A DNA stretch of 64,000 bases, from positions 9,078 through 73,077 of the IMG/VR virus record IMGVR_UViG_3300036832_001138, one strand, 5' to 3'. Both the position numbers and the translations under genes were made by a program. Position 1 is the stretch's first letter, and every line of letters begins with the position of its first letter. Of the stretch, positions 1,243 to 59,965 are shown in pieces. The DNA comes from a virus. Below the pieces are notes generated by a model. The model had not been told where the DNA came from. It saw only the letters and a list, made by a program, of their open reading frames with translations, and did not search any database.

Positions 1243-1292
1243 GAGCCCCGGCAGTCACGCTCTGGAGTTCATGAATTCGATGGCCGGGGCTC
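1243..1292 (-). ncRNA. Solo TIGR-like guide unit
   Basis: + strand GAGCCCCGGCA-gtcacgctc-TGGAGTTCA-tgaattcga-TGGCCGGGGCTC: same 9/9/9 core and inverted stem as the array units; intergenic. Confidence 0.75.
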
Positions 1293-5786: not shown

Positions 5787-5838
5787 GTGATCCGGGCATC
5801 AGGTTATTGGAGTTCATAGGTCGCGTGGCCGGGATCAC
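5787..5838 (-). ncRNA. Solo TIGR-like guide unit
   Basis: + strand GTGATCCGGGCA-tcaggttat-TGGAGTTCA-taggtcgcg-TGGCCGGGATCAC; own stem sequence, identical core. Confidence 0.75.
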
Positions 5839-36032: not shown

Positions 36033-37196
36033 TCATTTCAGCGGTATCCCGTCGTATCCGTCGAGCCACGCTTGCCAAAGCTTTTTGTCTTCGCGGTACT
36101 CGCCGGGGATCGCCTTGCGCTGTACGCCTCTGATCTTGTCGGTTTGTCCGTGGCCCCACGCCTCGATCTCCGCCTCTCGCCCTTGCATGTTGCCCGCGAT
36201 CTCGCGCGCCTTCTCGCCAAGCTCGCGCGCTTGGTCGACTTGTTCTTTCGGTGGCAGAATCTCGGGATTGGTGTCGGCAGCGCCGGGATTGCGAGCGCCA
36301 GAGGGGACGCTTGCTTCCCGCACGCCACCGTTCGCCGCGTCGCCTACGGCATCATCATGCTGTGCGGCAGAGTCAGTCGCTTGCGTCGCGGTCGAACTAA
36401 AACCGGCACCGAAATCGTCGAGCGTCGAGGCGACCGACGCCGGACCGTGCTCAATCTGCGGCTGCGTGCGGTGCTCATACGGCTCGGGATGGCCGATCGC
36501 GTCCATGCTCTCGGCTTCGTGCCGGAATACGTTTTCAATATCCGATGCCATCGGCAGCGATTTGGCATGCCGCCGCATGACGGTCTTGCGCACCATCTCC
36601 GGATAAAATACGTCGTCGTCCCACGGCGTCGCACGCTTGGCGCGCACGGCAGGCGACTTCAAACGAATTTCTTCGATCTGATCGATGGTCATCCATTCGA
36701 TCGATTTGCTTTCGTCGTCTTTGAAGGTCGCGACACTATACGCGCCGATGATCTTGCGCTTCGAATTGCCGGTCAGCGATGGCTTGTGATGCACGTAGGG
36801 CCGATCGCCGAATGCGATATCGAATTGGTCGCCCTCGAATACGACCTGACAATTTAGGTCGTTGATCAATCCCGATGCGCGAACCTTTTTGCGCAGACCG
36901 ACCACCATCGGTTGATAGGTCGCGATCAGATCGGGGCCGGATTTGAACGGCACGATCGCCGCCTCGCGGCCGTCGAGCATCAAGCCATCTTGCGCCGCAT
37001 GCATCATGACCGAGAGCAGCGAGCGCGGATTGCAGCGAAGCAAGTCCGGCTTATCGTTGAGCGTGGTGAAAACCACGCGCTTAAACTTATCGACGGTTTC
37101 CTTCGGCATCAGCATCGCGAATTGCGAGCTTGATTTTTCGATTAGCTCGCGCAGCGCGCCGGATTGATCTTGCTTAGCCGGTGTAGTCGTTGCCAT
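36033..37196 (-). CDS. recT: RecT-family ssDNA annealing recombinase
   Basis: 'AAQDGLMLDGREAAIVPF', 'VFEGDQF', 'PW..EMVRKTVMRRHAKSLP'; near the YqaJ gene. Confidence 0.9.
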   Translation of the reverse strand: MATTTPAKQDQSGALRELIEKSSSQFAMLMPKETVDKFKRVVFTTLNDKPDLLRCNPRSLLSVMMHAAQDGLMLDGREAAIVPFKSGPDLIATYQPMVVGLRKKVRASGLINDLNCQVVFEGDQFDIAFGDRPYVHHKPSLTGNSKRKIIGAYSVATFKDDESKSIEWMTIDQIEEIRLKSPAVRAKRATPWDDDVFYPEMVRKTVMRRHAKSLPMASDIENVFRHEAESMDAIGHPEPYEHRTQPQIEHGPASVASTLDDFGAGFSSTATQATDSAAQHDDAVGDAANGGVREASVPSGARNPGAADTNPEILPPKEQVDQARELGEKAREIAGNMQGREAEIEAWGHGQTDKIRGVQRKAIPGEYREDKKLWQAWLDGYDGIPLK

Positions 37197-37526
37197 TTAC
37201 ACTTTCCCTCATTCACCCGCCGAGTTAGGAGTAAAGCGAAACTCCGGCTCGGATGGGCGCATGGCAAATTGCCGATGCGCATCGTCGACTTCCTCGCGCA
37301 GCACATTGAACATTTGCCCGACTTCGTTGGGAGTCAACACGCCGCCATTGCGCTGGCCGAGCCTGCCGAGTTGGCGCAGCCCGCGCAGCACGCGCGAGAC
37401 TCGCGTTTCGGTTTGCACCCGGTATTTATTCGCATCCATTAGTTTCCTCCGTCTCAAGTTTGGTGGGGGCGCGACCGGGAGTGTCGGTTGCGGTGGCCGC
37501 GCCCCCGCGGCGACATTGGTGAGCGC

Positions 37527-38480
37527 CTACGCCGCCGCCGTGCCTTCGTCATCCTTCACAGCACGAAGCTGCCGATAGGTTGACGCGCGCACGAAGTGTT
37601 CCTTCTTTTGCACCGTCTTTAGGGTTACGCGCCAACCGTTCACGAGCGCGATCTCGGCGTCGCCGATCTTTTGCTTGATCTCGATATCAATCTCTTTGCA
37701 GCGCGCTTCCGCGGTGTCGCAATCGGCTTTGACTTTCTCGCGCTCGGCAAGCAATTCGTGCACGCGGTTATCGCTGCGCAGATCGATGGTTTTGCCCGGT
37801 GTCGCCGTGGCATGCATCGCCGTGATCAGCGCGGCATCGCGGGTAAAATCCGCCTTCGGCGTATTGCCCGCCTCAACGTCATGCCAAAACCTTTGCACGC
37901 CATCGCGGATGCGCGCTTCCGCCGCTTCGTGGCGCGGCACTTCGAACTCGTGAAGCTCCGGCGCGCCCCACGGCTTGATCTCAAGCGCAGCGATCAATCC
38001 AAACTCGGCACGCGCGAGCATCATGCACGTGAGGCATTGCAGGCTAATCCATGCGGGCGCGCCGTCGGTCCAATAGCGCTTGAATTGCGCGCTGGCGACG
38101 GTCTTCGCCTCGACGATGCCGCGTCTGCGCCCGGTCGGCCTGATCTCGGTACAGAAAAAGTCCGGCGTCCCGCCGAGCCGCAATTGCGTGTGGCGGAAAT
38201 AGGAGTTGGCCGCGCGCAGTTTCCAATCCGGATGTGCGCGTTGCACGTAGCGGCCGACCAACTCTTGAAGCTCGATGCCGCGCGCCATCACGCTGCTCAT
38301 CGCGCGCTCGGGAAGCTCGACGCCGCGCACCTTGGCGTGCAGGCCATAGATCGTTTCGTAAGGGTGCAGACCAAACAGTGCGCCGACCGTGCCTGCCGTC
38401 ACGTCGTGCTTTCGCCACGCGAGCCATTCGGCTTCGCTGGTTATGATACGGCGTTCGATCGTGGGCGGCTTCTTTGGCAT
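37527..38480 (-). CDS. YqaJ-like viral recombinase exonuclease
   Basis: 'EWLAWRK..TA', 'RG.EL', 'GGTPD', 'EAKT', 'LQ'. Confidence 0.85.
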   Translation of the reverse strand: MPKKPPTIERRIITSEAEWLAWRKHDVTAGTVGALFGLHPYETIYGLHAKVRGVELPERAMSSVMARGIELQELVGRYVQRAHPDWKLRAANSYFRHTQLRLGGTPDFFCTEIRPTGRRRGIVEAKTVASAQFKRYWTDGAPAWISLQCLTCMMLARAEFGLIAALEIKPWGAPELHEFEVPRHEAAEARIRDGVQRFWHDVEAGNTPKADFTRDAALITAMHATATPGKTIDLRSDNRVHELLAEREKVKADCDTAEARCKEIDIEIKQKIGDAEIALVNGWRVTLKTVQKKEHFVRASTYRQLRAVKDDEGTAAA

Positions 38481-38759
38481 CCGGGCGCTCGCGGATGGGG
38501 TGAGGGGCCAACGGTCCCGATTCGCACAATGTCACGCTATGCGGGCAAGTCAAAAGATTTTTTGCGCGAAGCGGTACGCGTCAGCGACGTTGACCCAAAA
38601 ATATCCCGCTAACCGCCGGAGCTTAGAAGGTTTTGCGCCTTTTCCACATGCCCCGCCGGGACGCTCGCGACACGTTGCCGGTGACGGCCTCGCGGCGTAT
38701 GGTTTCAAGGCTCTGTCCGGACTCGGACTTTCTGCGAAAAATCATGCGGAGGCAATACC

Positions 38760-39149
38760 ATGGCTGATAGCGGCGGCAACGGCTATGACCGACAACAATT
38801 GGAGGGATTTCTCAGCGAAATCGATGACGCGGATGCACGGCTCGCGTCACTCAAGGGCGAGTATATGCAGTCGTGCAAGGGCGTGCGCGAGGATATCTCG
38901 GCGGTTTACGATCGCGTCAAAGACGCGGGCGTGCCGCAACGGGCATTCAAGACCATCGTCAAAAACCGGCGCTTGAACCGGCAGATCGACGCCAACGTAC
39001 AACGGCTAGAGTTGGACGCGCAGGCCGATTACGACAAATTGTGCGAAGACCTTGGCGACTATATCGACCTTCCCCTTGGCCGCGCCGCGGCCGATCGGGC
39101 CCGGCCGCGTGCTGCCGAATCGAACCTCGACTCGCTCGCCGCAGGCTAA
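38760..39149 (+). CDS. GapR/DUF2312-like nucleoid-associated protein
   Basis: 'QQLEGFLSEID..EDISAVYDRVKDAG..AFKTIVK.R..LPLGRAA'; GGAGG RBS. Confidence 0.7.
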   Translation: MADSGGNGYDRQQLEGFLSEIDDADARLASLKGEYMQSCKGVREDISAVYDRVKDAGVPQRAFKTIVKNRRLNRQIDANVQRLELDAQADYDKLCEDLGDYIDLPLGRAAADRARPRAAESNLDSLAAG

Positions 39150-39250
39150 CGCCAGCGCCGTAATCTGTAGGCGCGCGGTGGGCGGATGGGGGCCACCATC
39201 ATGCCTGCCGCGTGGCGTTCCTTCCGGGCTTGTCGGGATGCGGCGGTGCT

Positions 39251-40858
39251 ATGGCATTCGAGGGCGAAGCGCCCAATGGCGCGGAAATGTTTCTTACCGA
39301 GCGCGTGGCGCTGCATCACGGCGATTGCCGGGCCGTGCTCGCGACCCTGCCGGAAAATTCCCTCGATAGCTGCGTCACCGATCCGCCCTATCACCTGATC
39401 AGCATCGTCAAGCGCTTCGGTGATGAAAACGCCAAGCCTGCGAGGCCGTTTGCTCGATCAAATCTTGTACGTGATCCCGATACATTGCAGCCGATTATTG
39501 GTAAGCAGAGCACGAGTCAATATGGCCGCCTCTCGACCGGCTTCATGGGCAAAGTTTGGGACGGCGGCAATGTTGCGGCTGATCCCGAGACATGGCGCGC
39601 GGTGTATCGCGTGCTCAAACCGGGCGCGCATCTTCTCGCGATGGGCGGCACCCGCACTTATCACCGCATGGCGTGCGCAATCGAGGATGCGGGGTTTGAG
39701 ATCAGAGATTGCGTGCAATGGCTGTACGGCTCTGGATTTCCGAAATCGCAAAACGTAGCAATTGCTATTGATAAACAAGCTGGAGCATCTGAGCACAGAT
39801 CAAAAAGGTTCAATACAGCGGGTGGCGGCCTGCCACCAATCGAAAAACAAGAACTGCGATCAGACAACTCTGAATATCAGCCGTACTCACCTAAAATTGA
39901 CGCCGCGCGCGAATGGGAAGGATGGGGCACCGCGCTCAAGCCCGCCTGCGAGTTGATCGTGCTCGCGCGCAAGCCGCTCTCGGAAAAGACCGTCGCCGCC
40001 AATGTGCTCAAGTGGGGAACGGGGGCGATCAATGTGGATGGGTGTCGGGTTCCGACAGACGAGAAATTGAATTCGCGCGATGGATACAAGACTGACGGCT
40101 TACATGATGGCTACAAGCGCCCTTGGATGACTGATGAAAAACATGACGCTAGATCGCGAATTGCTATTGAAAAAGCAGAATGTCTTGGACGCTGGCCCGC
40201 TAATTTAATCCACGACGGAAGTGATGAAGTCGTCGCGGCGTTTCCTGACGGCCGTTCTGCTGGCGACTATCCAAGTGAAAGTCGGGGAACCGGAAACGGC
40301 ACAACTTATCTGCCCGTAAAACCGCAGGGCCAACTCTATTCCGATTCCGGTTCTGCCGCCCGTTTCTTCTACACCGCGAAGGCCGACAGCGACGATCGGC
40401 TCGGCTCAAAGCACCCCACGATCAAGCCGCTCGACCTGATTCAATATCTTGTTCGGCTGATCTCACCGCGCGGCGGCACAGTGCTCGATCCGTTTGCCGG
40501 GAGCGGCACAACCGGCGAGGCGGCATGGCGCGAGGGCATGCGCGCGGTGCTGATCGAGCGCGAGGATGAATACTGCGCCGATATTCGCCGCCGCATGGCG
40601 CTCGTGCTCGCCGGTCCGGAGGAACGCACGCGCGAATCCATCAAAGCCCGCGGGCAGGTCGAACAGAATGCGGGGCCGCTCTTTGATTGGAAACCCCGCT
40701 CGCAAGGCTCGCCCATTGCGCGGGTGCTTCAATCATGTCCGCTTTATCCGGGTTGCGGTTGCGGCACGCAATCGGGCCCGCATACATGCGAATGGCGCGC
40801 GCAGGACCGCGATCGAGAGCTTTATCGCGGCCGCACCAAATCCGGAGACATGATGTGA
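39251..40858 (+). CDS. DNA N6-adenine/N4-cytosine methyltransferase, beta class (start uncertain)
   Basis: DPPY catalytic motif precedes 'HPTIKP..VLDPFAGSGTT' SAM-binding motif. Confidence 0.9.
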   Translation: MAFEGEAPNGAEMFLTERVALHHGDCRAVLATLPENSLDSCVTDPPYHLISIVKRFGDENAKPARPFARSNLVRDPDTLQPIIGKQSTSQYGRLSTGFMGKVWDGGNVAADPETWRAVYRVLKPGAHLLAMGGTRTYHRMACAIEDAGFEIRDCVQWLYGSGFPKSQNVAIAIDKQAGASEHRSKRFNTAGGGLPPIEKQELRSDNSEYQPYSPKIDAAREWEGWGTALKPACELIVLARKPLSEKTVAANVLKWGTGAINVDGCRVPTDEKLNSRDGYKTDGLHDGYKRPWMTDEKHDARSRIAIEKAECLGRWPANLIHDGSDEVVAAFPDGRSAGDYPSESRGTGNGTTYLPVKPQGQLYSDSGSAARFFYTAKADSDDRLGSKHPTIKPLDLIQYLVRLISPRGGTVLDPFAGSGTTGEAAWREGMRAVLIEREDEYCADIRRRMALVLAGPEERTRESIKARGQVEQNAGPLFDWKPRSQGSPIARVLQSCPLYPGCGCGTQSGPHTCEWRAQDRDRELYRGRTKSGDMM

Positions 40859-41418
40859 AAAAGATCGCCGATCACCTCATTCTCGGTTTGGATATCGCGA
40901 CCGTTACCGGTTACGCGATTGGCGCGCCGGGCACGGTGCCGCGCTGCGGATATATCAGGTTCGGCGAGGCGACGGCTTCGGCGAATTCGATCTTTGGCGC
41001 GGCGCTCTCGTGGTTCTCTGATTTTCTCAAAGAGGAACCGCGGCCGACCATGATCATGCTCGAATCCATGCTGCCCATGGCAGCGATGAAAGGCGAAACC
41101 CATCGGCAGACGCGCGATCGCCTCGCGGGGCTGCACGGCGTGTTGCGCGCCGTCGCCTTCTGCCGCGGGATTCACGATATCGGCGAGATCGGCGTGATCG
41201 CCGTGCGCCAGCATTTTTGCGGCGCAGCCAACGCGGGCAAGCACGGCGTTTATGAGCGCTGCCGCATGCTCGGCTGGCCGGTCAATGATCTCAACGCATC
41301 CGACGCCGCGGCGATTTGGAGCTATGCGTGCGGCATCGTGCGGCCGGACACCGCGATCAGCGTCACGCCGCTCTTTCATGGGCGACCGTACAGGGTGACC
41401 GCAGGAGCGGGATCGTGA
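40855..41418 (+). CDS. RuvC-like resolvase/endonuclease
   Basis: GTG start overlapping the MTase stop; 'ILGLDIATVTGYA..E..NASDAAAIW'. Confidence 0.7.
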   Translation: MKKIADHLILGLDIATVTGYAIGAPGTVPRCGYIRFGEATASANSIFGAALSWFSDFLKEEPRPTMIMLESMLPMAAMKGETHRQTRDRLAGLHGVLRAVAFCRGIHDIGEIGVIAVRQHFCGAANAGKHGVYERCRMLGWPVNDLNASDAAAIWSYACGIVRPDTAISVTPLFHGRPYRVTAGAGS

Positions 41419-41626: not shown

Positions 41627-43771
41627 GTGATGCTGGAGATCGAGCCCATAGCTCGCGCATTGCTCGGCGAGCCCAACGCGAAGCTATCTTCGCAATTCGA
41701 ATGGCGATATGGCAACCGCGGCTCGCTTTCAATCGATCTGCGCAAGAATGTTTGGCACGACCACGAAACCGACGAGAGCGGCGGATGCCTCGATCTGATC
41801 ACTCACAAGACCGGACTCGACGGCCCGGAGCGTGCGCAATGGATGCACGATCGCGGCATCGGCAATGGATACGATCAAACGACCAAGCGCCCGGAGATCG
41901 TGGCGACGTTTCCCTATAATGACGAATACGGCAAGGAGCTTTTTCAGGTTGTCAAATTCGAGCCGAAGGATTTCCGCCAGCGGCGGCAAGACAAGACCGC
42001 GCCCGGCGGCTATCGCTGGTCGGTCAAGGGCGTGCGGCGAATTCCCTATCGCCTCGACGATTTGTCAGAAAAAATCGAAGGGCGCATTTTCATCGCCGAA
42101 GGCGAAAAAGACGTTGATACGCTTTGGCGGCACAACATTCCAGCGACGTGCAATGCCGGGGGCGCAGGCAAGTGGCATCCCGAACTCACCGAATTTTTCC
42201 GCAACAAGACCGACAACGTAGTTGTACTGCCCGATCGTGATCCGCCGAAGAAAGACCCAAAGACCGGCGCGGAAATGAAGCACGAGGATGGGCGGTTCAT
42301 TCGGCCGGGGCAAGACCACGCACAAGAGATCGCGGCAGAGATGCATCGCATTGGCGTACCCGTGCGCGTGGTCGAGCTTTGGCGCGATTGGCCGGAGATG
42401 CCCGAGAAGGGTGACGTAACCGATTGGTTCGATCATGGCGGCACGGCCGACCGGCTACAGAAAATTGTTCAAGACGCCCCATTTTGGAAACCGGGCGATC
42501 AAGCTGACGACGGCGCGCTGCTCAAGCTCCAATCCGTGTTTCCGATCAACGAGCGCGCACTCCCAACGCGCAATTGGATCATGCCAGGACTTTTAATGCG
42601 GCGTCAGGTAACCGTGTTGGTAGCACCAAGTGGTGTGGGCAAAAGTTTGCTCACGCTGCAATTAGGTATCGCCTGTGCACAAGGCCGAAAATGGAGCGGT
42701 TGGACTCCGCGCCGTACATTCAACGTGCTGTTTATCAACTCGGAAGATGACTATTTCGAAATCTGCCGCAGGCTCGCCGCGGCCACGCAAAGGATGCGAC
42801 TCGGCGCACATAACGAATTCGAAATTGATCAGCTAGGAATCGCCGATCGCTTCCATATCGCCGATGCCGAGCAGAGCGGTACTGTTGTTGCCAAGTTTGA
42901 CGCACGAACCAAAACGCTCGTGAGCACACCGTTGCACGATCAACTGATCGAAACAATAAAAGCCAACCAAATCGATGTGGTCTTCGTCGATCCGTTTGCC
43001 GAGACTTTCGAGGGCGACGAAAATTCCAATAGCGAATTGAAGTGGGCGGGCGCGTTATGGCGCAAGGTTGCGCGGCAAACCGATGCTGCGGTTTGTCTCG
43101 TGCATCATACAAAAAAATATGCAAGCGGGCTGCAAGGTGACGTTGATGCGGCGCGCGGTGCTGGTGCGCTGATCGGAATCGCGCGCATTGTCTCGACGCT
43201 ATTTCCGATGACGCCGAAGGAAGCGGAAGCGATGGGCGTCAAGCTCGGAGATAGGTCGCTCTATTTGCGATACGATGATGCGAAAGCAAATCTGAATTTG
43301 GTTTCTCCGTTTGCGCGCTGGTTTCAAAAGACCACGATCACGCTCGACAATGCATGCGGCGATCCTAACAGCGACGACTTTGTGCCCGGCGACGAAGTGG
43401 GCGTGCTCAATCCATGGAAGCCTGAAACGAAAGACGTGCACGAAGCTCAGATCATCGGATTTTTCAAGGCGATCGATCGCGGCATGGTCGACGATGCTGA
43501 TCAACCGACCGGCGAATTCTGGACCTTCAAAAAGGGCAAGAGCGGCGCGAGATACGTCGGCTACCTCGCGCAAAGCTTTTTCAAATGCGATGCGCTCTCG
43601 CAAGCCGAAGCGCTGATCCGCAAGTGGGAAGGCACAAGATTGAAAACGATTCAATTCAAGGCGCGGAACGGTCACCTTCGTGATCGCGTCGTGAGCGAGC
43701 TTTCCCCCGACTTCCCGCGCCCCGAGGCCGCGCCGATCGAGCCGATGGCACAGCTTTTTCCTGCCGAATAG
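41627..43771 (+). CDS. Primase-helicase (TOPRIM + RepA/AAA_25)
   Basis: 'IFIAEGEKD', 'LPDRD', 'KGDVTDW'; Walker A APSGVGKS; 'VFVDP', 'LVHHTKK', 'ARGAGA'. Confidence 0.9.
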   Translation: MMLEIEPIARALLGEPNAKLSSQFEWRYGNRGSLSIDLRKNVWHDHETDESGGCLDLITHKTGLDGPERAQWMHDRGIGNGYDQTTKRPEIVATFPYNDEYGKELFQVVKFEPKDFRQRRQDKTAPGGYRWSVKGVRRIPYRLDDLSEKIEGRIFIAEGEKDVDTLWRHNIPATCNAGGAGKWHPELTEFFRNKTDNVVVLPDRDPPKKDPKTGAEMKHEDGRFIRPGQDHAQEIAAEMHRIGVPVRVVELWRDWPEMPEKGDVTDWFDHGGTADRLQKIVQDAPFWKPGDQADDGALLKLQSVFPINERALPTRNWIMPGLLMRRQVTVLVAPSGVGKSLLTLQLGIACAQGRKWSGWTPRRTFNVLFINSEDDYFEICRRLAAATQRMRLGAHNEFEIDQLGIADRFHIADAEQSGTVVAKFDARTKTLVSTPLHDQLIETIKANQIDVVFVDPFAETFEGDENSNSELKWAGALWRKVARQTDAAVCLVHHTKKYASGLQGDVDAARGAGALIGIARIVSTLFPMTPKEAEAMGVKLGDRSLYLRYDDAKANLNLVSPFARWFQKTTITLDNACGDPNSDDFVPGDEVGVLNPWKPETKDVHEAQIIGFFKAIDRGMVDDADQPTGEFWTFKKGKSGARYVGYLAQSFFKCDALSQAEALIRKWEGTRLKTIQFKARNGHLRDRVVSELSPDFPRPEAAPIEPMAQLFPAE

Positions 43772-44570
43772 GTTCGTCAACGGCGACGCGACGCCATTCG
43801 CTCAGCAAATCTTTGAGAAATTGTTTCATCGTGATGCGCAGCGCATCTTTGCGCCGATGGCCGTCGGTCCAATCCGGGTGCGCTTTCTTGGTGTAGGCGC
43901 GGCGCTTAGCATAGATTTCGCCATAGTGGCCCTTTGGCTTGCCTTCGCCGCCGGTTTTCTTTGCGCCAATCCACTGCGCGTTCACGAGCCACGTCGCGAT
44001 CTGTGCCATCAGCGCATAGCGCTCCCCGGAAAAAGGATTTTCGATCCATTCGTCGGCGCTCAGCGCGCGCGGTCGCCACGTCGTGCGTTTCCACGTTGAT
44101 CCGGCGTGGCCGTCGTATGGTGCGAAGCCGAGCCGCTTCCATAACTTGCTCGGCTTGGAATAATTCGAGAGATCGCCAGCTTCGGCGACGATGGTCGCGA
44201 GCCCGAGCGCGCCTGCGCCGTGAATCTTTTCGATCCATGGATAAACCGGTAGCTCGCACGCGGCAGCCTCCATTCGCTTTTCCGTGGCAGCACGCCGTTC
44301 ATCAGCGGGCGCACGCGCAGGATCGCATACCTGCAACACTTCTTCCGCCAGCGGATGCGCTTCGCCCTCGCGAATGCGCTTGATAATTTCGCGCACCTCG
44401 CGGTTCGATTTCTCGCGCTCGGCATCGCTGGCGTTAGGATTCCATTTGGTGCCATTGATACGAATGAAGCTTTCGAGCGAGCGGTCAAGTTTCTGTTGCA
44501 CTTTCATTGCGAACCGTCGCTTTCGATGCAGGCCGCGGATCAATTCGATGGTTTCGGATTGTTGGGTCAT
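43656..44570 (-). CDS. TasA-like Nop-domain RNA-guided DNA-binding protein (IS110 C-terminal-like fold, no nuclease)
   Basis: Coiled-coil N-terminus, then 'LPVYPWIEKIHGAGALGLATIVAEAGDLSNYSKPSKLWKRLGFAP' and 'YGEIYAKRR..HRRKDALRITMKQFLKDL'; no DEDD/RuvC or HNH motif; directly downstream of the dual-spacer array. Confidence 0.85.
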   Translation of the reverse strand: MTQQSETIELIRGLHRKRRFAMKVQQKLDRSLESFIRINGTKWNPNASDAEREKSNREVREIIKRIREGEAHPLAEEVLQVCDPARAPADERRAATEKRMEAAACELPVYPWIEKIHGAGALGLATIVAEAGDLSNYSKPSKLWKRLGFAPYDGHAGSTWKRTTWRPRALSADEWIENPFSGERYALMAQIATWLVNAQWIGAKKTGGEGKPKGHYGEIYAKRRAYTKKAHPDWTDGHRRKDALRITMKQFLKDLLSEWRRVAVDEPIRQEKAVPSARSARPRGAGSRGKARSRRDHEGDRSAP

Positions 44571-44599
44571 TTGTTGTGGTTCCTATTTGTGAGTTAGGT

Positions 44600-45137
44600 G
44601 CGAGCCCGGCAACCGGTCAATGGAGTTCACGATCGCCTTGGCCGGGCTCGCGGCGGTCGCAAGCGGCGTGTGGAGTTCACAGACGTGATGGCGACCGCAT
44701 TGGTGGATTAGGGTGCGAGCCCGGCACTCGCGATATGGAGTTCAAGTGCTGGTAGGCCGGGCTCGCGGCGGTCGCAACGCAACGTTGGAGTTCACATGAT
44801 CTTTGGCGACCGCATTCGAGAATAGAGCGCCCGGCATGCCGTTTGTGGAGTTCAATCACGTGCTGGCCGGGCGCGGCGGTCGCACGGAGGCGCTGGAGTT
44901 CACGATCTACATGGCGACCGCATCGGTGGATTGGGTGCGAGCCCGGCATTGGCCGACAGGAGTTCAACCCTTTCCTGGCCGGGCTCGCTACGGTCGCATT
45001 GCGCGCGTGGAGTTCACTCAGATCGTGGCGACCGCAAAAGGTGCGCCCGGCAGCGTTGTCATGGAGCACACAAGTGTTTTGGCCGGGCGCGGCGGTCGCA
45101 ACCGCTCCGTGGAGTTCACTACTGTTTTGGCGACCGC
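44600..45137 (-). ncRNA. TIGR-like stem-loop guide array 1 (10 units)
   Basis: 5 pairs of GCG(AG)CCCGGCA-N9-TGGAGTTCA-N9-TGGCCGGG(CT)CGC and GCGGTCGCA-N9-TGGAGTTCA-N9-TGGCGACCGC. Confidence 0.9.
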
Positions 45138-45149
45138 ATTTCGTGAATA

Positions 45150-45821
45150 TCATGACCGTGCATCGCCCTCGATTTCTGACGGCTTGCGCGCGGCGGCGAT
45201 CAGATCGCTTGCGACCTTCGCCGAGCCGTCGCGGATCACTTCGACGGCTTTGATCCTAGCGTCGTTATAGTATTGCACGGCAATCTTGAGCGGTATCACC
45301 TTCTCGACTTCGCCGTGCGGATCGGCGGCGACGCAATAGTCATTCAACCGCCGGATTGCGATCGCGTCGACTGCATCATCATAACCGCGCTGTAGGAAAT
45401 CTCCGGCCGTGTTTGCCAGATTTTCCGCGATGGCGCGCAATTCGTGTACGCGCAGCTTCCCAAGCGGACCATAACCACGGATTTTGCGGTTGAATATCTC
45501 GGCGGCGACGGCTTGCCCGGCGGCGATCGCTCCCGCCTTTTGCGCGTCGGTGGGTGTGCGGAGCAGACTGCTCCGGCGATGCTTGCCCTCGCGGCGGCGC
45601 GCGGCGGGCTTCGGGTGCGCGATCCGCGGTAGCTTCGTTTCGCTCGACGGCGACGACAAGCGCGACAGGTAATCAGCAACGAGCGCGATAAGCAGCGGCC
45701 GCTTCGCATTGTCCATCAACGCGCGTGCCAGCGTCGGTGCGGCTTTGTTCACACTATTGTTGCTGGCGCGCAGCGCTTCGATCGCGGCGTCGCGGAGCTT
45801 ATCGAGATCAGAGGCGGCCAT
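45150..45821 (-). CDS. Unknown 223-aa protein between the two guide arrays
   Basis: GAAGGA RBS; Ala-rich helical sequence with a basic central stretch; co-oriented with the arrays and the Tas-like gene. Confidence 0.75.
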   Translation of the reverse strand: MAASDLDKLRDAAIEALRASNNSVNKAAPTLARALMDNAKRPLLIALVADYLSRLSSPSSETKLPRIAHPKPAARRREGKHRRSSLLRTPTDAQKAGAIAAGQAVAAEIFNRKIRGYGPLGKLRVHELRAIAENLANTAGDFLQRGYDDAVDAIAIRRLNDYCVAADPHGEVEKVIPLKIAVQYYNDARIKAVEVIRDGSAKVASDLIAAARKPSEIEGDARS

Positions 45822-45852
45822 GTGTTTGGTGTCCTTCTCGTTTGAAAAAAGT

Positions 45853-47044
45853 GCGAGCCCGGCAAGTGGTGACTGGAGTCCACGTCGGATCAGGCCGGGC
45901 TCGCGGCGGTCGCAGAATTGTTTTGGAGTTCACCAAGGCACTGGCGACCGCATTCGAGATAAGAGCGCCCGGCAGGCTACATTTGGAGTTCATAGGGCCA
46001 ATGGCCGGGCGCGGCGGTCGCAGCGCAAGATTGGAGTTCACGTGATCTTTGGCGACCGCATTCGAGGGAAAGAGTGCGCCCGGCAGAGCTTCACAGGAGT
46101 TCACGCCGAATTTGGCCGGGCGCGGCGGTCGCATCTCGTCGTTGGAGTTCAATCGTGTGCTGGCGACCGCATTTCGAATAGGTGCGCCCGGCAGAAGCCG
46201 GTTGGAGTTCAGGCCAGCATTGGCCGGGCGCGGCGGTCGCACGACACCAATGGAGTGCAAGGGAGAACAGGCGACCGCATTCGAGATGGGTGCGCCCGGC
46301 AGGTCATCGTTGGAGTTCACGTGCTTGATGGCCGGGCGCGGCGGTCGCAATCTCTGGATGGAGTTCATACAAATGCTGGCGACCGCATTCGGGTGAAAGA
46401 GAGCGCCCGGCATTTCCATTTTGGAGTTCAACTGATCGCTGGCCGGGCGCGGCGGTCGCATTCCAAACCTGGAGTTCATCAGCTTACTGGCGACCGCAGT
46501 CGGTTTGATAGGTGCGCCCGGCAAGGCGATGTTGGAGTTCATATTGCCGGTGGCCGGGCGCGGCGGTCGCAGATAGGTGCAGGAGTTCACACCCGAATTG
46601 GCGACCGCGTTGGTGATAGGTGCGCCCGGCAATGATTGCTTGGAGTTCATCATGAAGGTGGCCGGGCGCGGCGGTCGCAGCGTGGCGTTGGAGTTCACGG
46701 GATCAGTGGCGACCGCGTTCGTTGTGATAGGTGCGCCCGGCAGACAGCGATCGGAGTGCACGTTCACCAGGGCCGGGCGCGGCGGTCGCAGTGGCAGTAT
46801 GGAGTTCATTCGGCACCTGGCGACCGCATTCGAGAATAGAGCGCCCGGCACGCCTCCCTTGGAGATCAATGCCGAAATGGCCGGGCGCGGCGGTCGCATC
46901 CTCGATCTGGAGTGCATCAGTGGCATGGCGACCGCGTTCGTGAAAAGGTGCGCCCGGCAGACGAGTTCTGGAGTTCACGACTACGATGGCCGGGCGCGGC
47001 GGTCGCACCTTGAACTTGGAGTTCAACCACGTCGTGGCGACCGC
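45853..47044 (-). ncRNA. TIGR-like stem-loop guide array 2 (22 units)
   Basis: 11 pairs, period 108-111 nt; all spacers exactly 9 nt and different from each other. Confidence 0.9.
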
Positions 47045-47052
47045 ATGCCAAA

Positions 47053-47082
47053 CATATACGGGCCATCGGCCTAACGTGTCAA
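47053..47082 (-). promoter_or_regulatory. Sigma70 promoter of the array operon, with operator
   Basis: Minus strand TTGACA-N18-TATATG ending 8 nt before the first unit; spacer contains AGGCCGATGGCCC. Confidence 0.75.
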
Positions 47083-47097
47083 TGTGACGAAAATCAC

Positions 47098-47126
47098 AAA
47101 AAAAGAGCCGCCCCGAAGGGCGGCCC
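47098..47126 (-). terminator. Intrinsic terminator insulating the array promoter
   Basis: Minus strand GGGCCGCCC-TTCG-GGGCGGCTC-TTTTTTT. Confidence 0.85.
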
Positions 47127-47131
47127 GAGCT

Positions 47132-47791
47132 TTAGCTTAGATCGAGCGTGCGGCCTGCGATCGTGGGGGCCGCGAGTTGTTTCGCTTCGCCGAGATCGAG
47201 CCGTCGCTTCGCCATTCGCGAGGCTTTGATCGCGTCGCGCTGGCGTAGCGATTTCTCGTAATACTTCTTTCGTAACTTGAGCTTGCGCAGTTTCGTCTTA
47301 GCGAGCTTTTCCTTTCGCTCCCACGCGGCGATCAACTCAACCGTGCGCGCGTAGCGTGCTTGTTGCCGGTCCGTCGGCGGCTTCGCCTTCGCGCGGGCGA
47401 GCTTTCCGTCGAGCCATCCCGACTTGACCACGTACTCCGCGAGCCTGCGCTCGATATACGCATGTTGCGGAGCGTGCGGCCCGAGCCGATTGCGGTCATA
47501 AAGGCGATTGAATGCCCAATGACTTATATCGTGCACGATCCCTTTCCATCCGCTGAAACTCGGATGGCGATAGGCCGGGTTGACGTAGAACACGCCGCCA
47601 CGAGTCCAAGTGCGCCGGTTGCCCGACGTTGGTTTGAACTTTCCGCGGAACTTGCGTTTCGGCGAGTTCGCCGGACCGAGCGAGAGGGCGAGTCTGACGA
47701 GCTTGCGCGCGCCAGCGATCGCCTCCTGCGGTGTGGGGGCCCGCGCATCCGCGGGCCATGCGGCATTGACGTTTTGATAGTTCGTTGGCAT
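47132..47791 (-). CDS. Basic hypothetical protein
   Basis: GAGGA RBS; 'VHDISH..H' HExxH-like remnant; C-terminal 'GRTLDLS'. Confidence 0.65.
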   Translation of the reverse strand: MPTNYQNVNAAWPADARAPTPQEAIAGARKLVRLALSLGPANSPKRKFRGKFKPTSGNRRTWTRGGVFYVNPAYRHPSFSGWKGIVHDISHWAFNRLYDRNRLGPHAPQHAYIERRLAEYVVKSGWLDGKLARAKAKPPTDRQQARYARTVELIAAWERKEKLAKTKLRKLKLRKKYYEKSLRQRDAIKASRMAKRRLDLGEAKQLAAPTIAGRTLDLS

Positions 47792-58315: not shown

Positions 58316-58410
58316 GCGCCCGGCAGTGCTTGTCTGGAGTTCACGTCGAAGCTGGCCGGGCGCGGCGGTCGCAAAGGGTTATTGGAGTTCATCGGATGCT
58401 TGGCGACCGC
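58316..58410 (-). ncRNA. Orphan TIGR-like unit pair
   Basis: Complete two-unit module identical in repeats to array 2, with new spacers gtgcttgtc/cgtcgaagc and aagggttat/tcggatgct; intergenic. Confidence 0.9.
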
Positions 58411-59965
58411 ATCTCGTGTGTTGGTTTATCCTTTCACCGAACCGTGTTCCATCATTGCTTGTTCGTCATCGGTCACCCCCTCGAATAGTAGTAGCACTCT
58501 GTCATCCTGGCGCAGCGCGACGATCCGCGCGTTGCGCACGACGATCGGCTTACCCGACACAAACTCATACGTGAGCGTGGCATCGCTCATTGGGAAATCG
58601 GCAATATCGAAGTCCGGGCTCAACGGGATTTCACCGGAGACAATGCGTGTCATGACACGGGCTCGCCATGGCGTTGCACGATCGGGAGGTTATCGAGATT
58701 GCGCGTTGGCTTGATCGTGCGATAAAAATCGGCCAGATCGTCACCTTTCATCGTGCTCGACAACGTGCCGAGCAAATAGCCGAGCTTGAACGAATCGATC
58801 AGATCGCCGTCGCGCACCATCATCCTAACCATCCCGATGATGATTTCTTTCATGATCACGCTGCCGGTGCTCTCGCGGATCAAGCGTTCCCATGTGACAT
58901 AGCTCACCATGTGACCAATCATCGGCGGCCTTTCTTGAGTTCCTTCAAGCCGCGTTGCAGAATGTTGCCGCCACCATCCGAGAGCACCAACATCAACGCG
59001 AGCGTAGCGGTATCGGTCTTGTATGCGCGCGCCTCGCGATCGAGCTTGCGCACGAGCGATTTGATTCGTTTGGCCCGAATGCCCTTGCTCATTGCAGGCG
59101 ACTCCATCTGCCCTTGGCGTCGCGATCGAAGCGCGAGCCGCATTGTGGATTTCGACATGTGATCGGATGCGTGGTGTCGAGAGTTTCTTGCACGCAATCA
59201 GGGCAAAGCTTTTGCGCGTAGCACGCGTCAAGCTCGGCCTGCGCCATGATTCCAGACGGGAGTTGGAAAAGCGGGTGCAACGGGATCGTCGTCAGTCTTT
59301 CGATCCGTTCGACGAATTCTTTTTCCTCGCGGCGAAAGCGCGCCATGCGCCGCCAACTAAAGATAAAGCACACGACCATCGTGAGCACCGACACGGCACT
59401 GATCGCGCCCATCCAACTTCCGACTTGGATGTTGCGGACAAGATAGTAAGCATTCAATGCGCCAGCGATAACGTTGAAGGTTTGTAGCGCGATATAGCTT
59501 TGATTGATGTTCATGCGTGCCCCGCCTGCGATGGCGTGACGATAAAGAGCGCGTTGTACGCAAGTCCGCCGGGCTCGCCGTCAATCAGGAATTCCTCGAT
59601 CCAATCGCGGCCGTCGCGTAGCTCTGGCTGGCCTACGGCGTTGAGGCACAATTGCATGACCGCAGAGGCGGCGGCCGGATGTGGCAAGCGGCCCGGACGA
59701 TTGACCGAGAGCGAACAGTGCATGCACAAGCCCGCGGGCTGTTCCTCGAAGCTCACGCACAGCCGGTAGTTTGCGGGCAGAAACACTTCCTCCGCGGGCG
59801 GACGATAGATTTCAACCGCCGCGCGGTCGGCGAGCGTCACCACATCGGTATTTTGGTTCTCCGGCAGTGCCGCCTTGAGCAGCGCCCACGGGATCGGCCG
59901 TGCCCGCGCGCGATCGACCGCGGTCTTGATCGTCGCGATTTCTTCGCTGCCGAGCAGAAGCGCGC

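What the first reader, a model, noticed from the sequence alone, without database searches (positions are those of the whole stretch)
43656..47126. Phage-encoded TIGR-Tas-like RNA-guided system with a nuclease-less effector and 32 dual-spacer guides
Seen: one minus-strand unit reading terminator | promoter | 22-unit array | 223-aa ORF | 10-unit array | 304-aa protein. On the transcribed strand each unit is stem-CA-N9-UGAACUCCA-N9-U-stem, and every spacer is 9 nt and unique. The 304-aa protein has the IS110/Nop-like 'G.G..LA.IVAE.GD..Y..PSKLW..LG.AP' core but no RuvC/DEDD or HNH domain. Established: two 9-nt spacers bounded by CCA and UG motifs next to a Nop-domain protein is the architecture of TIGR-Tas, and TasA is the nuclease-less form. 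Inference: a programmable DNA-binding system that represses or recruits to about 36 targets in the host or competing phages.
Basis: partly seen in the sequence, partly recalled or inferred. Interest (0 to 1): 0.95.

Follow-up and report, generated by a model that had tools for sequence, protein, structure and literature searches.

The report
Phage stem-loop TIGR-TasA guide array
A 73-kb soil phage carries a real TIGR-TasA system, a CRISPR-like RNA-guided DNA binder first published in 2025, here with 38 hairpin guide RNAs and a conserved partner gene of unknown function.

Summary
It is not new as a kind: stem-loop TIGR arrays with nuclease-free TasA were published in 2025-26 (PMC12045711; bioRxiv 10.64898/2026.09.09.750476 and 10.64898/2026.08.11.744272). 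This scan has also noted similar loci on other DNA.

The minus strand holds 22 + 10 units reading stem-CCA-N9-UGAACUCCA-N9-UG-stem. All 64 spacers are unique. The 304-aa protein folds as a Nop domain with no nuclease domain. Its best structural matches are TasH (Z 15.8) and TasR (Z 14.9), then IS110 (about 12) and Nop5 (7-8).

Four things go beyond the finding:
- Units come as fixed A/B hairpin doublets one base apart, across the clade.
- Six more units lie scattered elsewhere in the genome.
- The 223-aa ORF inside the array is present in 28 of 29 related loci and matches no known family or fold.
- Guides turn over very fast: 2 shared guides at 98% TasA identity.

Natural targets were not found, and none lie in the phage itself. 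Expression is untested.

The parts
47105..47126 (-). Intrinsic terminator of the upstream 219-aa gene; it marks the start of the unit
   Evidence: 9-pair stem (8 G-C), 4-nt loop, then a T-run
47053..47082 (-). Promoter-like TTGACA-N18-TATATG, ending about 9 nt before the first hairpin (by eye only)
   Evidence: Read. The consensus scan did NOT call it (0 promoters in 43400-47400), because the second hexamer lacks the final T
45853..47045 (-). Sub-array 1: 22 stem-loop tigRNA units, as 11 A/B doublets
   Evidence: each unit 43.7-55.7 bits. Doublet order
45150..45821 (-). 223-aa conserved partner gene of unknown function, lying between the two sub-arrays
   Evidence: Profile hit in 28 of 29 related loci, always on the tas strand. 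40 clusters of relatives. No Pfam family. Best fold match Z 6.8. Model pLDDT 81.3
44600..45138 (-). Sub-array 2: 10 stem-loop tigRNA units, as 5 A/B doublets
43656..44570 (-). tasA: 304-aa solo Nop-domain protein (coiled coil plus C-terminal RNA-binding domain). Residues 266-304 are disordered and not conserved
   Evidence: AF2 pLDDT 85.4, pTM 0.78. Foldseek ranks 1-10 are all TasR/TasH. Z 15.8 and 14.9. PDB sequence best hit 9mty_A, E 0.015. Motif H231-x2-W234-x3-H238-x6-R245-x3-K249 in 36 of 36 aligned relatives
58316..58411 (-). Satellite A/B doublet, 14 kb from tasA, in the 129-nt gap between two minus-strand ORFs
   Evidence: 54.3 and 49.8 bits. Folds as two hairpins 1 nt apart, z -3.7
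1244..1291 (-). Satellite single unit (B-like stem), antisense in the gap between two plus-strand baseplate genes
   Evidence: 47.0 bits, E 1.2e-7. Fold z -4.0. Flanking genes
5789..5836 (-). Weakest satellite unit: its own stem has one C-C mismatch. It lies antisense in the gap before the endolysin gene
   Evidence: 30.4 bits, E 3.7e-4. Fold z only -1.6, and only the centroid shows the expected stem

Best explanation
This is a stem-loop TIGR-TasA system of a soil phage.

Proposed mechanism:
1. Inferred: one minus-strand transcript starts just after the terminator at 47105. It runs through 22 hairpin units, the 223-aa gene, 10 more units and tasA.
2. By homology: a TasA dimer, joined through its coiled coil, clamps each hairpin by its two CCA/UG box pairs. 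Host RNases trim the linkers.
3. Shown for other TasA proteins, not here: each ribonucleoprotein unwinds an 18-bp DNA site. Spacer A pairs with one strand and spacer B with the other strand of the adjoining 9 bp. With no nuclease, the complex stays bound and blocks transcription or replication.

Biological role (inference): the guides change far faster than the protein and none matches the phage's own 73 kb. The most likely targets are therefore fast-changing foreign DNA, meaning rival phages or plasmids or variable host loci, rather than the phage's own genes.

Two clade features probably bear on biogenesis or assembly: the conserved 223-aa partner protein and the fixed A/B hairpin doublets. 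Their roles are unknown.
For: Protein:
- AF2 model pLDDT 85.4, pTM 0.78.
- Foldseek ranks 1-10 are all TasR or TasH chains.
- VIA-align: Z 15.8 (21kl_B TasH, 199 residues aligned, rmsd 3.2), Z 14.9 (9mty_A TasR, 181 residues, rmsd 2.9), IS110-family Z 11.7-12.4, Nop5/Prp31 Z 7-8.
- The aligned parts of TasH and TasR exclude their nuclease domains.
- The best PDB hit by sequence is TasR 9mty_A, E 0.015.
- The residues reported to read box C in PlTasA (H292, W295, H299, R306, K310; passages) recur with the same spacing as H231, W234, H238, R245, K249, in 36 of 36 aligned relatives.

RNA:
- 32 units have CCA-N9-UG-N4-CCA-N9-UG between palindromic flanks. This is the published box C, box D and 9-nt loop grammar.
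- Units were picked by box grammar alone in this genome and 29 related loci: 308 on the tas strand against 2 on the other. In the 270 distinct ones, the flanks pair in 93-100% of units at 8 stem positions. When flanks were dealt among units the figure was 42-66% at six of them, and it was 100% and 90% at the two box-proximal pairs.
- 29 of 29 true relatives' loci carry such units next to tas.
- 38 model hits in the genome, all on one strand.

Turnover:
- TasA 98% identical: 2 shared guides of 12 and 15.
- TasA 91% identical: 0 shared in three pairs.

No self-target:
- 32 guides against 73,077 bases gave a best hit of 2 mismatches (1 hit). Counts at 3-4 mismatches were like the shuffles.
- 369 guides of the clade against 397,754 bases showed no excess over control geometries.

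Function of TasA elsewhere: EMSA and reversible reporter repression by MbTasA; cryo-EM and EMSA of PlTasA.
Against: - Nothing here shows expression, processing, RNA binding or DNA binding. The only sequencing run that holds the locus is a soil DNA run that may be its source.
- No sigma-70 promoter was called.
- The CUU motif reported at processing sites of stem-loop tigRNAs is present in only 5 of 14 B-to-A linkers.
- No natural target was identified, so the foreign-DNA role is an inference from turnover and from the lack of self-matches. Short 18-bp targets with tolerated mismatches could have been missed.
- The target geometry I used (one strand reads spacer A followed by the reverse complement of spacer B) is my deduction from the reported 8-nt 3' overhangs. 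It is not a stated rule. All four geometries were scanned for that reason.
Confidence: 0.85

Rival explanations
1. Host take-over. The guides silence chromosomal genes of the host, probably a Xanthobacteraceae-like soil alphaproteobacterium, during infection or lysogeny.
For: - The predicted target of unit 44767-44814 matches exactly in 2 of 301 Xanthobacteraceae-family genomes. Both hits fall at the same place in an orthologous LysR-type regulator gene. By my own calculation, not a call, about 0.01-0.05 such hits are expected for a random 18-mer in that sample.
- The only relative in the species-genome collection lies on a Xanthobacteraceae MAG contig.
Against: - The two hits are one evolutionary event. 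They came from a 16-fold degenerate pattern that gave 4 hits in 3 unrelated genes, which is close to chance.
- A second guide gave 0 exact hits in 301 genomes. It gave 15 one-mismatch hits against 3 for the reversed control, and none in the two genomes with the LysR hit.
- Only 3 of 38 guides were tested.
- Very fast guide turnover fits conserved host genes poorly.
Confidence: 0.2
2. Self-regulation. TasA with its guides represses the phage's own genes as a lifecycle switch.
For: - Xu et al. list regulation of the viral lifecycle as one possible role (Discussion).
- Four of the six satellite units lie antisense in intergenic gaps between plus-strand genes: baseplate genes, the gap before the endolysin gene, and two unannotated ORFs near the left end.
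Against: - No guide matches the 73,077-base genome at 0 or 1 mismatch in any of four geometries.
- No pair of doublet guides has neighbouring sites, even at up to 4 mismatches each.
Confidence: 0.05
3. A decaying or domesticated IS110-type element. The protein would be a transposase remnant and the hairpins would be bridge-RNA or REP-like debris with no guide function.
For: - The only Pfam hit is the IS110 C-terminal family Transposase_20, below its threshold (20.8 against 21.3 bits).
- PHROGs calls its relatives 'transposase'.
- IS110 structures score Z about 12.
Against: - There is no DEDD/RuvC domain.
- Tas structures score higher than IS110 (Z 15-16 against 12).
- The family is large: 2,437 representatives. 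64 columns of the alignment are invariant.
- The stems and boxes are strictly kept while the spacers are all unique. Decay would not produce that pattern.
Confidence: 0.02

Closest known systems
Stem-loop TIGR-TasA systems: PlTasA (Peromyscus leucopus gut contig), BlTasA, MbTasA. Sources: Faure et al. 2025, PMC12045711, sections 4, 6, 8, 9, 10, 24, 44 and 49 read; Xu et al. 2026, bioRxiv 10.64898/2026.09.09.750476, Results, Discussion and Extended Data legends read; bioRxiv 10.64898/2026.08.11.744272, passages read
   Same: - Solo Nop-domain protein.
- Hairpin units with two 9-nt spacers, each bounded by box C and box D.
- 9-nt loop repeat.
- Sub-arrays on both sides of genes.
- Phage origin.
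- Box-C-reading residues with the same spacing as in PlTasA.
   Different: - 38 guides. The published mean is about 7 per stem-loop array: 17,756 tigRNAs in 2,559 arrays.
- Two fixed stems in strict A/B alternation, with a 1-nt junction.
- A conserved 223-aa partner gene.
- Units scattered up to about 50 kb from tasA.
- The CUU linker motif is present in only 5 of 14 linkers.
- The words orphan, dispersed and doublet, and alternating in the sense of stems, do not occur in the held text of the first two papers. I could not see their figures, supplements or the TIGRSafari catalogue.
Dual-repeat TIGR systems with TasR or TasH (TaTasR PDB 9MTY; SpTasH PDB 9W04 and others)
   Same: [quoted passage not shown]
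- 9-nt spacers.
- UG...CCA loop repeat with an A-rich centre.
- Same protein core (Z 14.9-15.8).
   Different: - No RuvC or HNH domain.
- Long stems instead of short edge repeats.
[quoted passage not shown] That was not checked residue by residue here.
TasParB-TasA operons (Faure et al. 2025, Methods section 44)
   Same: A tasA gene in a conserved two-gene cassette with arrays around and between the genes.
   Different: - The partner here is not ParB-like: no ParB family appears among the Pfam matches of 29 members at E up to 0.1.
- Its model is all-helical.
- Those operons carry dual-repeat arrays; this one carries stem-loop arrays.
IS110-family bridge-RNA recombinases (IS621 PDB 8WT6; ISCro4 PDB 9T56)
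   Same: - Nop-like RNA-binding domain (Z 11.7-12.4).
- The bridge RNA is described as resembling a fusion of two tigRNAs (Fig. 7E legend). The A/B doublet recalls this.
   Different: - No DEDD/RuvC catalytic domain.
- Many guides instead of one bridge RNA.
- No element ends.

Membership tests
TIGR-Tas (stem-loop, TasA type) | Protein with a Nop domain: coiled-coil dimerisation helices plus a C-terminal RNA-binding domain | tested here: met
   AF2 pLDDT 85.4. Foldseek ranks 1-10 are all Tas chains. Z 15.8 to TasH and 14.9 to TasR over 181-199 residues
TIGR-Tas (stem-loop, TasA type) | No nuclease domain (this defines TasA as against TasR and TasH) | tested here: met
   The model starts in the coiled coil (helix 4-40). 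It aligns only to TasH 65-283 and TasR 112-299. No nuclease family in Pfam
TIGR-Tas (stem-loop, TasA type) | Units with two spacers of about 9 nt, each preceded by box C (CCA) and followed by box D (UG), with a loop repeat of about 9 nt between them | tested here: met
   32 of 32 units in register. G8 C9 C10, T21 G22, C27 C28 and T39 G40 are invariant. Published grammar read
TIGR-Tas (stem-loop, TasA type) | Palindromic flanks that form a stem around each spacer pair | tested here: met
   93-100% paired at 8 positions in 270 units chosen without regard to flanks; dealt control 42-66% at six of them, 100% and 90% at the two box-proximal pairs. Folds z -3.1 to -4.0. Most variation is between two conserved stem types, so free covariation is limited
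TIGR-Tas (stem-loop, TasA type) | Array next to tas, on its strand, and kept in relatives while the spacers differ | tested here: met
   29 of 29 related loci. 308 units on the tas strand against 2 on the other. Spacer turnover
TIGR-Tas (stem-loop, TasA type) | Box-C-reading residues as in solved TasA (PlTasA H292/W295/H299, R306, K310) | tested here: met
   The same spacing, H-x2-W-x3-H-x6-R-x3-K, starts at residue 231, in 36 of 36 relatives (residues quoted from passages). This is a match by spacing, not an alignment to the PlTasA sequence, which I did not hold
TIGR-Tas (stem-loop, TasA type) | Conserved CUU at the stem base or linker (the reported processing mark) | tested here: inconclusive
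   5 of 14 B-to-A linkers hold CTT. The paper reports the motif as frequent, not universal
TIGR-Tas (stem-loop, TasA type) | Transcription and processing into unit RNAs bound by Tas; spacer-dependent DNA binding | not testable with these tools
   No RNA run holds the locus. This needs pull-down, small-RNA sequencing and EMSA
IS110-family RNA-guided recombinase | N-terminal DEDD/RuvC-like catalytic domain joined to the Nop-like domain | tested here: not met
   Only a sub-threshold Transposase_20 hit at residues 113-165. The model has no domain before the coiled coil
Box C/D snoRNP (Nop5/Nop56/58) | Nop5-type protein with an N-terminal fibrillarin-binding domain, plus K-turn guide RNAs | tested here: not met
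   Nop5 and Prp31 chains score only Z 7-8, against 15-16 for Tas. There is no N-terminal domain. The loop repeat is a plain UG-N4-CCA with no K-turn
TasParB partner of TasA | Partner protein with a ParB/Srx-type domain | tested here: not met
   No ParB family among the Pfam matches of 29 members at E up to 0.1. The model is all-helical
CRISPR-Cas | Direct repeats of 25-36 nt with single spacers of similar size, plus cas genes | tested here: not met
   The units are 48-nt hairpins with two 9-nt spacers. No cas-like family was seen in the neighbours scanned

The most novel reading that the evidence does not exclude
In this clade the working RNA may be the A/B doublet rather than the single hairpin.

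The doublet would be a two-hairpin RNA of about 105 nt with four spacers, built like an IS110 bridge RNA. It would load two TasA dimers and tie together, or cooperatively occupy, two 18-bp DNA sites. The 223-aa protein, kept in every informative relative, would act as the assembly, processing or effector partner.

That would be an RNA-guided DNA-bridging or DNA-looping device in a phage, and a living intermediate between tigRNAs and bridge RNAs.

What the evidence shows:
- Adjacent units are AB 93 times and BA 66 times, against AA once and BB never.
- The A-to-B gap is 1 nt in 64 of 93 cases; the B-to-A gap is 10-16 nt.
- Both stems are kept across phages whose TasA falls to about 57% identity.
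- Satellites occur mostly as intact doublets.

What counts against it: single units also occur, and nothing shows that the doublet escapes cleavage.
Probability: 0.12. Interest if true: 0.8.

Novelty: new variant of a known kind. Interest (0 to 1): 0.4.

Why it matters
As a kind this is already in print, so it opens no new field. Its value lies in four specifics.

- It is a near-complete 73-kb phage genome with one of the larger stem-loop guide sets: 38 guides. That makes it a good test bed for the main open question about TIGR systems, which is what the guides target in nature (stated as open). Here the phage's own genome can be excluded.
- The 223-aa gene, kept in 28 of 29 related loci, is a candidate second component of TasA systems. 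It could bear on the unknown maturation of stem-loop tigRNAs.
- The fixed A/B doublets may bear on how arrays grow and on the proposed kinship with IS110 bridge RNAs.
- The scattered single units show that guide sets extend well beyond the neighbourhood of tas. Surveys limited to that neighbourhood will therefore undercount them.

Tried and rejected
Self-targets
- 32 guides in four geometries against the 73-kb genome gave nothing at 0-1 mismatch. Counts at 3-4 mismatches were like the shuffles.
- 369 clade guides against 397,754 bases of own and related phage DNA gave no excess over control geometries.
- Doublet co-targets within 300 nt: 0, the same as the control.

IMG/VR scan
- A degenerate 18-mer covering the two related guides gave 24 loci. 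0 of 24 equal either guide's target, and all are unrelated contigs of lower GC.

Host-family scans
- See the host take-over rival. I stopped after three guides because one-mismatch noise was high.

Binding of TasA to the 223-aa protein
- Complex prediction returned 'no answer', with a score of 0.00 in both runs and no controls folded. This is neither for nor against binding.

The 223-aa protein
- No PHROG.
- No Pfam family.
- PDB profile search: best E 0.16.
- VIA-align wide search: best Z 6.8, helical hairpins only.
- ESM Atlas: no usable hit.

Other searches
- Rfam: only three sub-threshold matches, all on the terminator.
- RNA evidence: no RNA holder is listed, only one soil DNA run that may be the source. 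I did not lay reads.
- tRNAs in the window: none.
- Cultured-phage collection: one distant TasA relative, Rhizobium phage RHph_X2_25 at 26% identity, so no named close kin.
- Earlier notes of this scan on this genome or by sequence: none.
- 'relatives' cannot be drawn for a virus record.

Full report
OBSERVATION

Read on the minus strand, window 47126..43656 has the following layout:
- a strong intrinsic terminator that ends the upstream 219-aa gene (47126..47105; 9 pairs, then a T-run);
- a by-eye promoter-like TTGACA-N18-TATATG (47082..47053), which the consensus scan did not call (0 promoters in 43400-47400);
- 22 repeat units;
- a 223-aa ORF (45821..45150);
- 10 more units;
- a 304-aa ORF (44570..43656).

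One search found 33 matches to the 9-nt core at up to 2 substitutions. 32 are units and one (45810) is a chance match in the ORF start.

In a gap-free alignment of the 32 units (48 columns), the invariant letters are the two CCA boxes, the two TG boxes and the first stem pairs. The two 9-nt stretches are variable. 64 of 64 spacers are unique, and the nearest two units differ at 4 of 18 positions. Tandem Repeats Finder reports periods of 108-115, 219 and 327, which reflects a two-unit module.

The units are not of one kind. Two hairpins alternate:
- A has the stem GCGGTCGC/GCGACCGC.
- B has the stem GCGCCCGGC/GCCGGGCGC, with a compensated longer form, GCGAGCCCGGC/GCCGGGCTCGC, in four units.

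I counted adjacent units in this genome and 25 non-duplicate related loci. L009, L012, L023 and L030 were left out as duplicates and L002 as a false match. The counts were AB 93, BA 66, AA 1 and BB 0. Other stem classes also occur, in the more distant relatives. The A-to-B gap is 1 nt in 64 of 93 cases, and the B-to-A gap is 10-16 nt. Doublets fold as two hairpins one base apart (z -3.1 and -3.7).

A covariance model built from the 32 units finds 38 matches in the whole 73-kb genome. All are on the minus strand, and nothing else appears up to E = 1. The six extra units are:
- a doublet at window 58316-58411, between two minus-strand ORFs;
- single units at 1244-1291 and at 5789-5836 (the latter is weak: 30.4 bits, one stem mismatch, fold z -1.6);
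- a doublet at genome 2820-2915, just outside the window.

Four of the six lie antisense in intergenic gaps between plus-strand genes: baseplate genes, the gap before the endolysin gene, and two unannotated ORFs near the left end.

THE PROTEIN

Sequence searches:
- Pfam gives only a sub-threshold IS110 C-terminal hit (Transposase_20, 20.8 against 21.3 bits).
- Against PDB sequences the best hit is the TIGR TasR chain 9mty_A (E 0.015).
- The family is large: 391 clusters at 90% identity with E up to 1e-3, and 2,437 representatives at 50% identity.

With a 36-row alignment AlphaFold2 gives pLDDT 85.4 and pTM 0.78. The model is all-helical, with a long coiled coil (helices 4-40, 49-67, 75-104) and a C-terminal domain. 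Residues 266-304 are disordered.

Structure searches:
- Foldseek ranks 1-10 are all TasR or TasH chains, followed by IS110-family recombinases.
- VIA-align gives Z 15.8 for TasH 21kl_B (199 residues, rmsd 3.2) and Z 14.9 for TasR 9mty_A (181 residues, rmsd 2.9).
- It gives Z 11.7-12.4 for IS110-family chains and Z 7-8 for Nop5 and Prp31.
- The matched parts of TasH (65-283) and TasR (112-299) lie after their nuclease domains.

The protein is therefore a solo Nop domain, which defines TasA. The residues reported to read box C in the PlTasA cryo-EM structure (H292, W295, H299, R306, K310; passages seen) recur with identical spacing at H231, W234, H238, R245 and K249. This holds in 36 of 36 aligned relatives.

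CONTEXT

The window is bases 9078-73077 of a 73,077-base virus record. PHROGs identifies baseplate, tail-fibre, endolysin, RecE-like, RecT-like, RuvC-like, primase-helicase and replication-initiator genes.

The only run that holds the locus is a soil-metagenome DNA run that may be its source. The species-genome collection holds one true relative, on a 4.6-kb contig of a Xanthobacteraceae MAG. The cultured-phage collection holds only a 26%-identical hit, in Rhizobium phage RHph_X2_25.

RELATIVES

28 viral contigs and the MAG contig encode relatives at 46-73% identity. All 29 carry units of the same grammar beside tas.

I picked units by box grammar alone, with no stem requirement. That gave 308 units on the tas strand against 2 on the other. 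In the 270 distinct ones, the flanks pair in 93-100% of units at eight stem positions. When flanks were dealt among units the figure was 42-66% at six of them, and 100% and 90% at the two box-proximal pairs. Most of the variation is between the two conserved stem types, so this is strong evidence of a kept structure but only limited free covariation.

Whole records of five relatives also show units far from tas, with 0 hits to the reversed control pattern. By my own arithmetic, these lie 42-63 kb away in G305, 5-24 kb in G306 and 15 kb in G302.

THE 223-AA GENE

A profile of 29 relatives finds this gene in 28 of 29 related loci, always on the tas strand and usually just upstream of tas. The one locus without it, L017, holds only 259 bases upstream of tas. 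Plain tblastn had found it in 13 of the 29.

It has 40 clusters of relatives. No match was found in PHROGs, Pfam, a PDB profile search or ESM Atlas. Its best fold match is Z 6.8, to helical hairpins.

The model (pLDDT 81.3, pTM 0.45) shows three parts:
- a three-helix N-terminal bundle;
- a disordered basic linker;
- a long helical hairpin.

It is not the ParB-like partner described for some dual-repeat TasA operons.

COMPARISON WITH WHAT IS KNOWN

Faure et al. 2025 define TIGR arrays, box C (CCA), box D (UG), 9-nt spacers and TasA, TasR and TasH. They also describe stem-loop arrays with TasA, split into sub-arrays.

Xu et al. 2026 catalogue 2,559 stem-loop arrays with 17,756 tigRNAs. They note mostly 9-nt loops and flexible positions around tas. 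They show that TasA is a reversible RNA-guided transcriptional repressor.

A third preprint gives PlTasA cryo-EM structures with a stem-loop guide.

The finding is therefore a member of a published kind, and its inferred function matches published experiments on relatives. Neither of the first two papers uses the words orphan, dispersed or doublet, or alternating in the sense of stems, in the held text. I could not see their figures, supplements or the TIGRSafari catalogue, so I cannot say the clade features are unreported. Earlier notes of this scan describe similar loci on other DNA and reached the same 'known kind' verdict.

TARGETS

The reported 8-nt 3' overhangs imply a geometry: one strand of the target should read spacer A followed by the reverse complement of spacer B. 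This is my deduction, so I scanned all four arrangements.
- No guide matches the phage's own genome at 0-1 mismatch.
- Clade guides show no excess of matches on related phage DNA.
- Doublet partners have no neighbouring sites.
- A degenerate scan of IMG/VR for the two related guides gave 24 loci, none equal to either target.
- In 301 Xanthobacteraceae-family genomes one guide's target matches exactly, in an orthologous LysR-type gene of two genomes. This is one event from a 16-fold degenerate pattern, so it is a weak lead.
- A second guide gave no exact hit in the same sample.

Guide turnover is very fast. Phages with 98%-identical TasA share 2 guides of 12 and 15, and three pairs at 91% share none. 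That pattern, together with the lack of self-matches, fits variable foreign DNA as the target better than self-regulation or conserved host genes. It remains an inference.

VERDICT

- The kind is known.
- The clade-level features are modest, checkable additions: A/B doublets, scattered units, a conserved partner gene, 38 guides and a weak CUU motif (5 of 14 linkers).
- No expression, processing or binding was or could be tested here.

Noticed in passing
window 43656-43771: The 3' end of tasA (minus strand) overlaps by 116 bases the 3' end of the convergent 714-aa primase-helicase gene (41627-43771, plus strand). The overlapped TasA tail (residues 266-304) is disordered and not conserved, and no terminator follows tasA.
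   Followed up: partly
window 45808-46926 and 44677-45153 (minus strand); several plus-strand frames: Long open frames of 372 and 158 aa run straight through the arrays. They come from stop-free repeat units and should not be annotated as genes.
   Followed up: no
window 46013-46060 and 44767-44814: Two A-type units in different sub-arrays carry related guides, identical at 14 of 18 spacer positions. They could be a duplicated unit that is drifting, or guides against two variants of one target.
   Followed up: partly
L057 (G092:C7) 1304-2224 and L058 (G257:C12): The predicted 18-bp target of unit 44767-44814 matches exactly inside the N-terminal part of an orthologous LysR-type regulator gene in two Xanthobacteraceae-family genomes. 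This may be chance.
   Followed up: partly
window 45841-45863: The last hairpin of sub-array 1 has an 11-pair G+C-rich stem and is followed directly by ACTTTTTT, just before the ribosome-binding site of the 223-aa gene. It could attenuate read-through into the genes.
   Followed up: no
window 36033-41418: A recombination module lies upstream of the replication genes: RecT-like (36033-37196), RecE-like exonuclease (37527-38480) and a RuvC-like resolvase (40687-41418). No tRNA gene lies in the window.
   Followed up: no
H1: MW960032.1 25149-25706 (Rhizobium phage RHph_X2_25): This is the only cultured-phage record with a detectable TasA relative (26% identity over residues 97-261). It is annotated as a hypothetical protein. 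I did not check it for hairpin units.
   Followed up: no
G304:C1:62094-62177 (whole record of L020): In one relative, two units lie on the strand opposite to tas, about 7.5 kb away. All other dispersed units in the five records searched share the tas strand.
   Followed up: no
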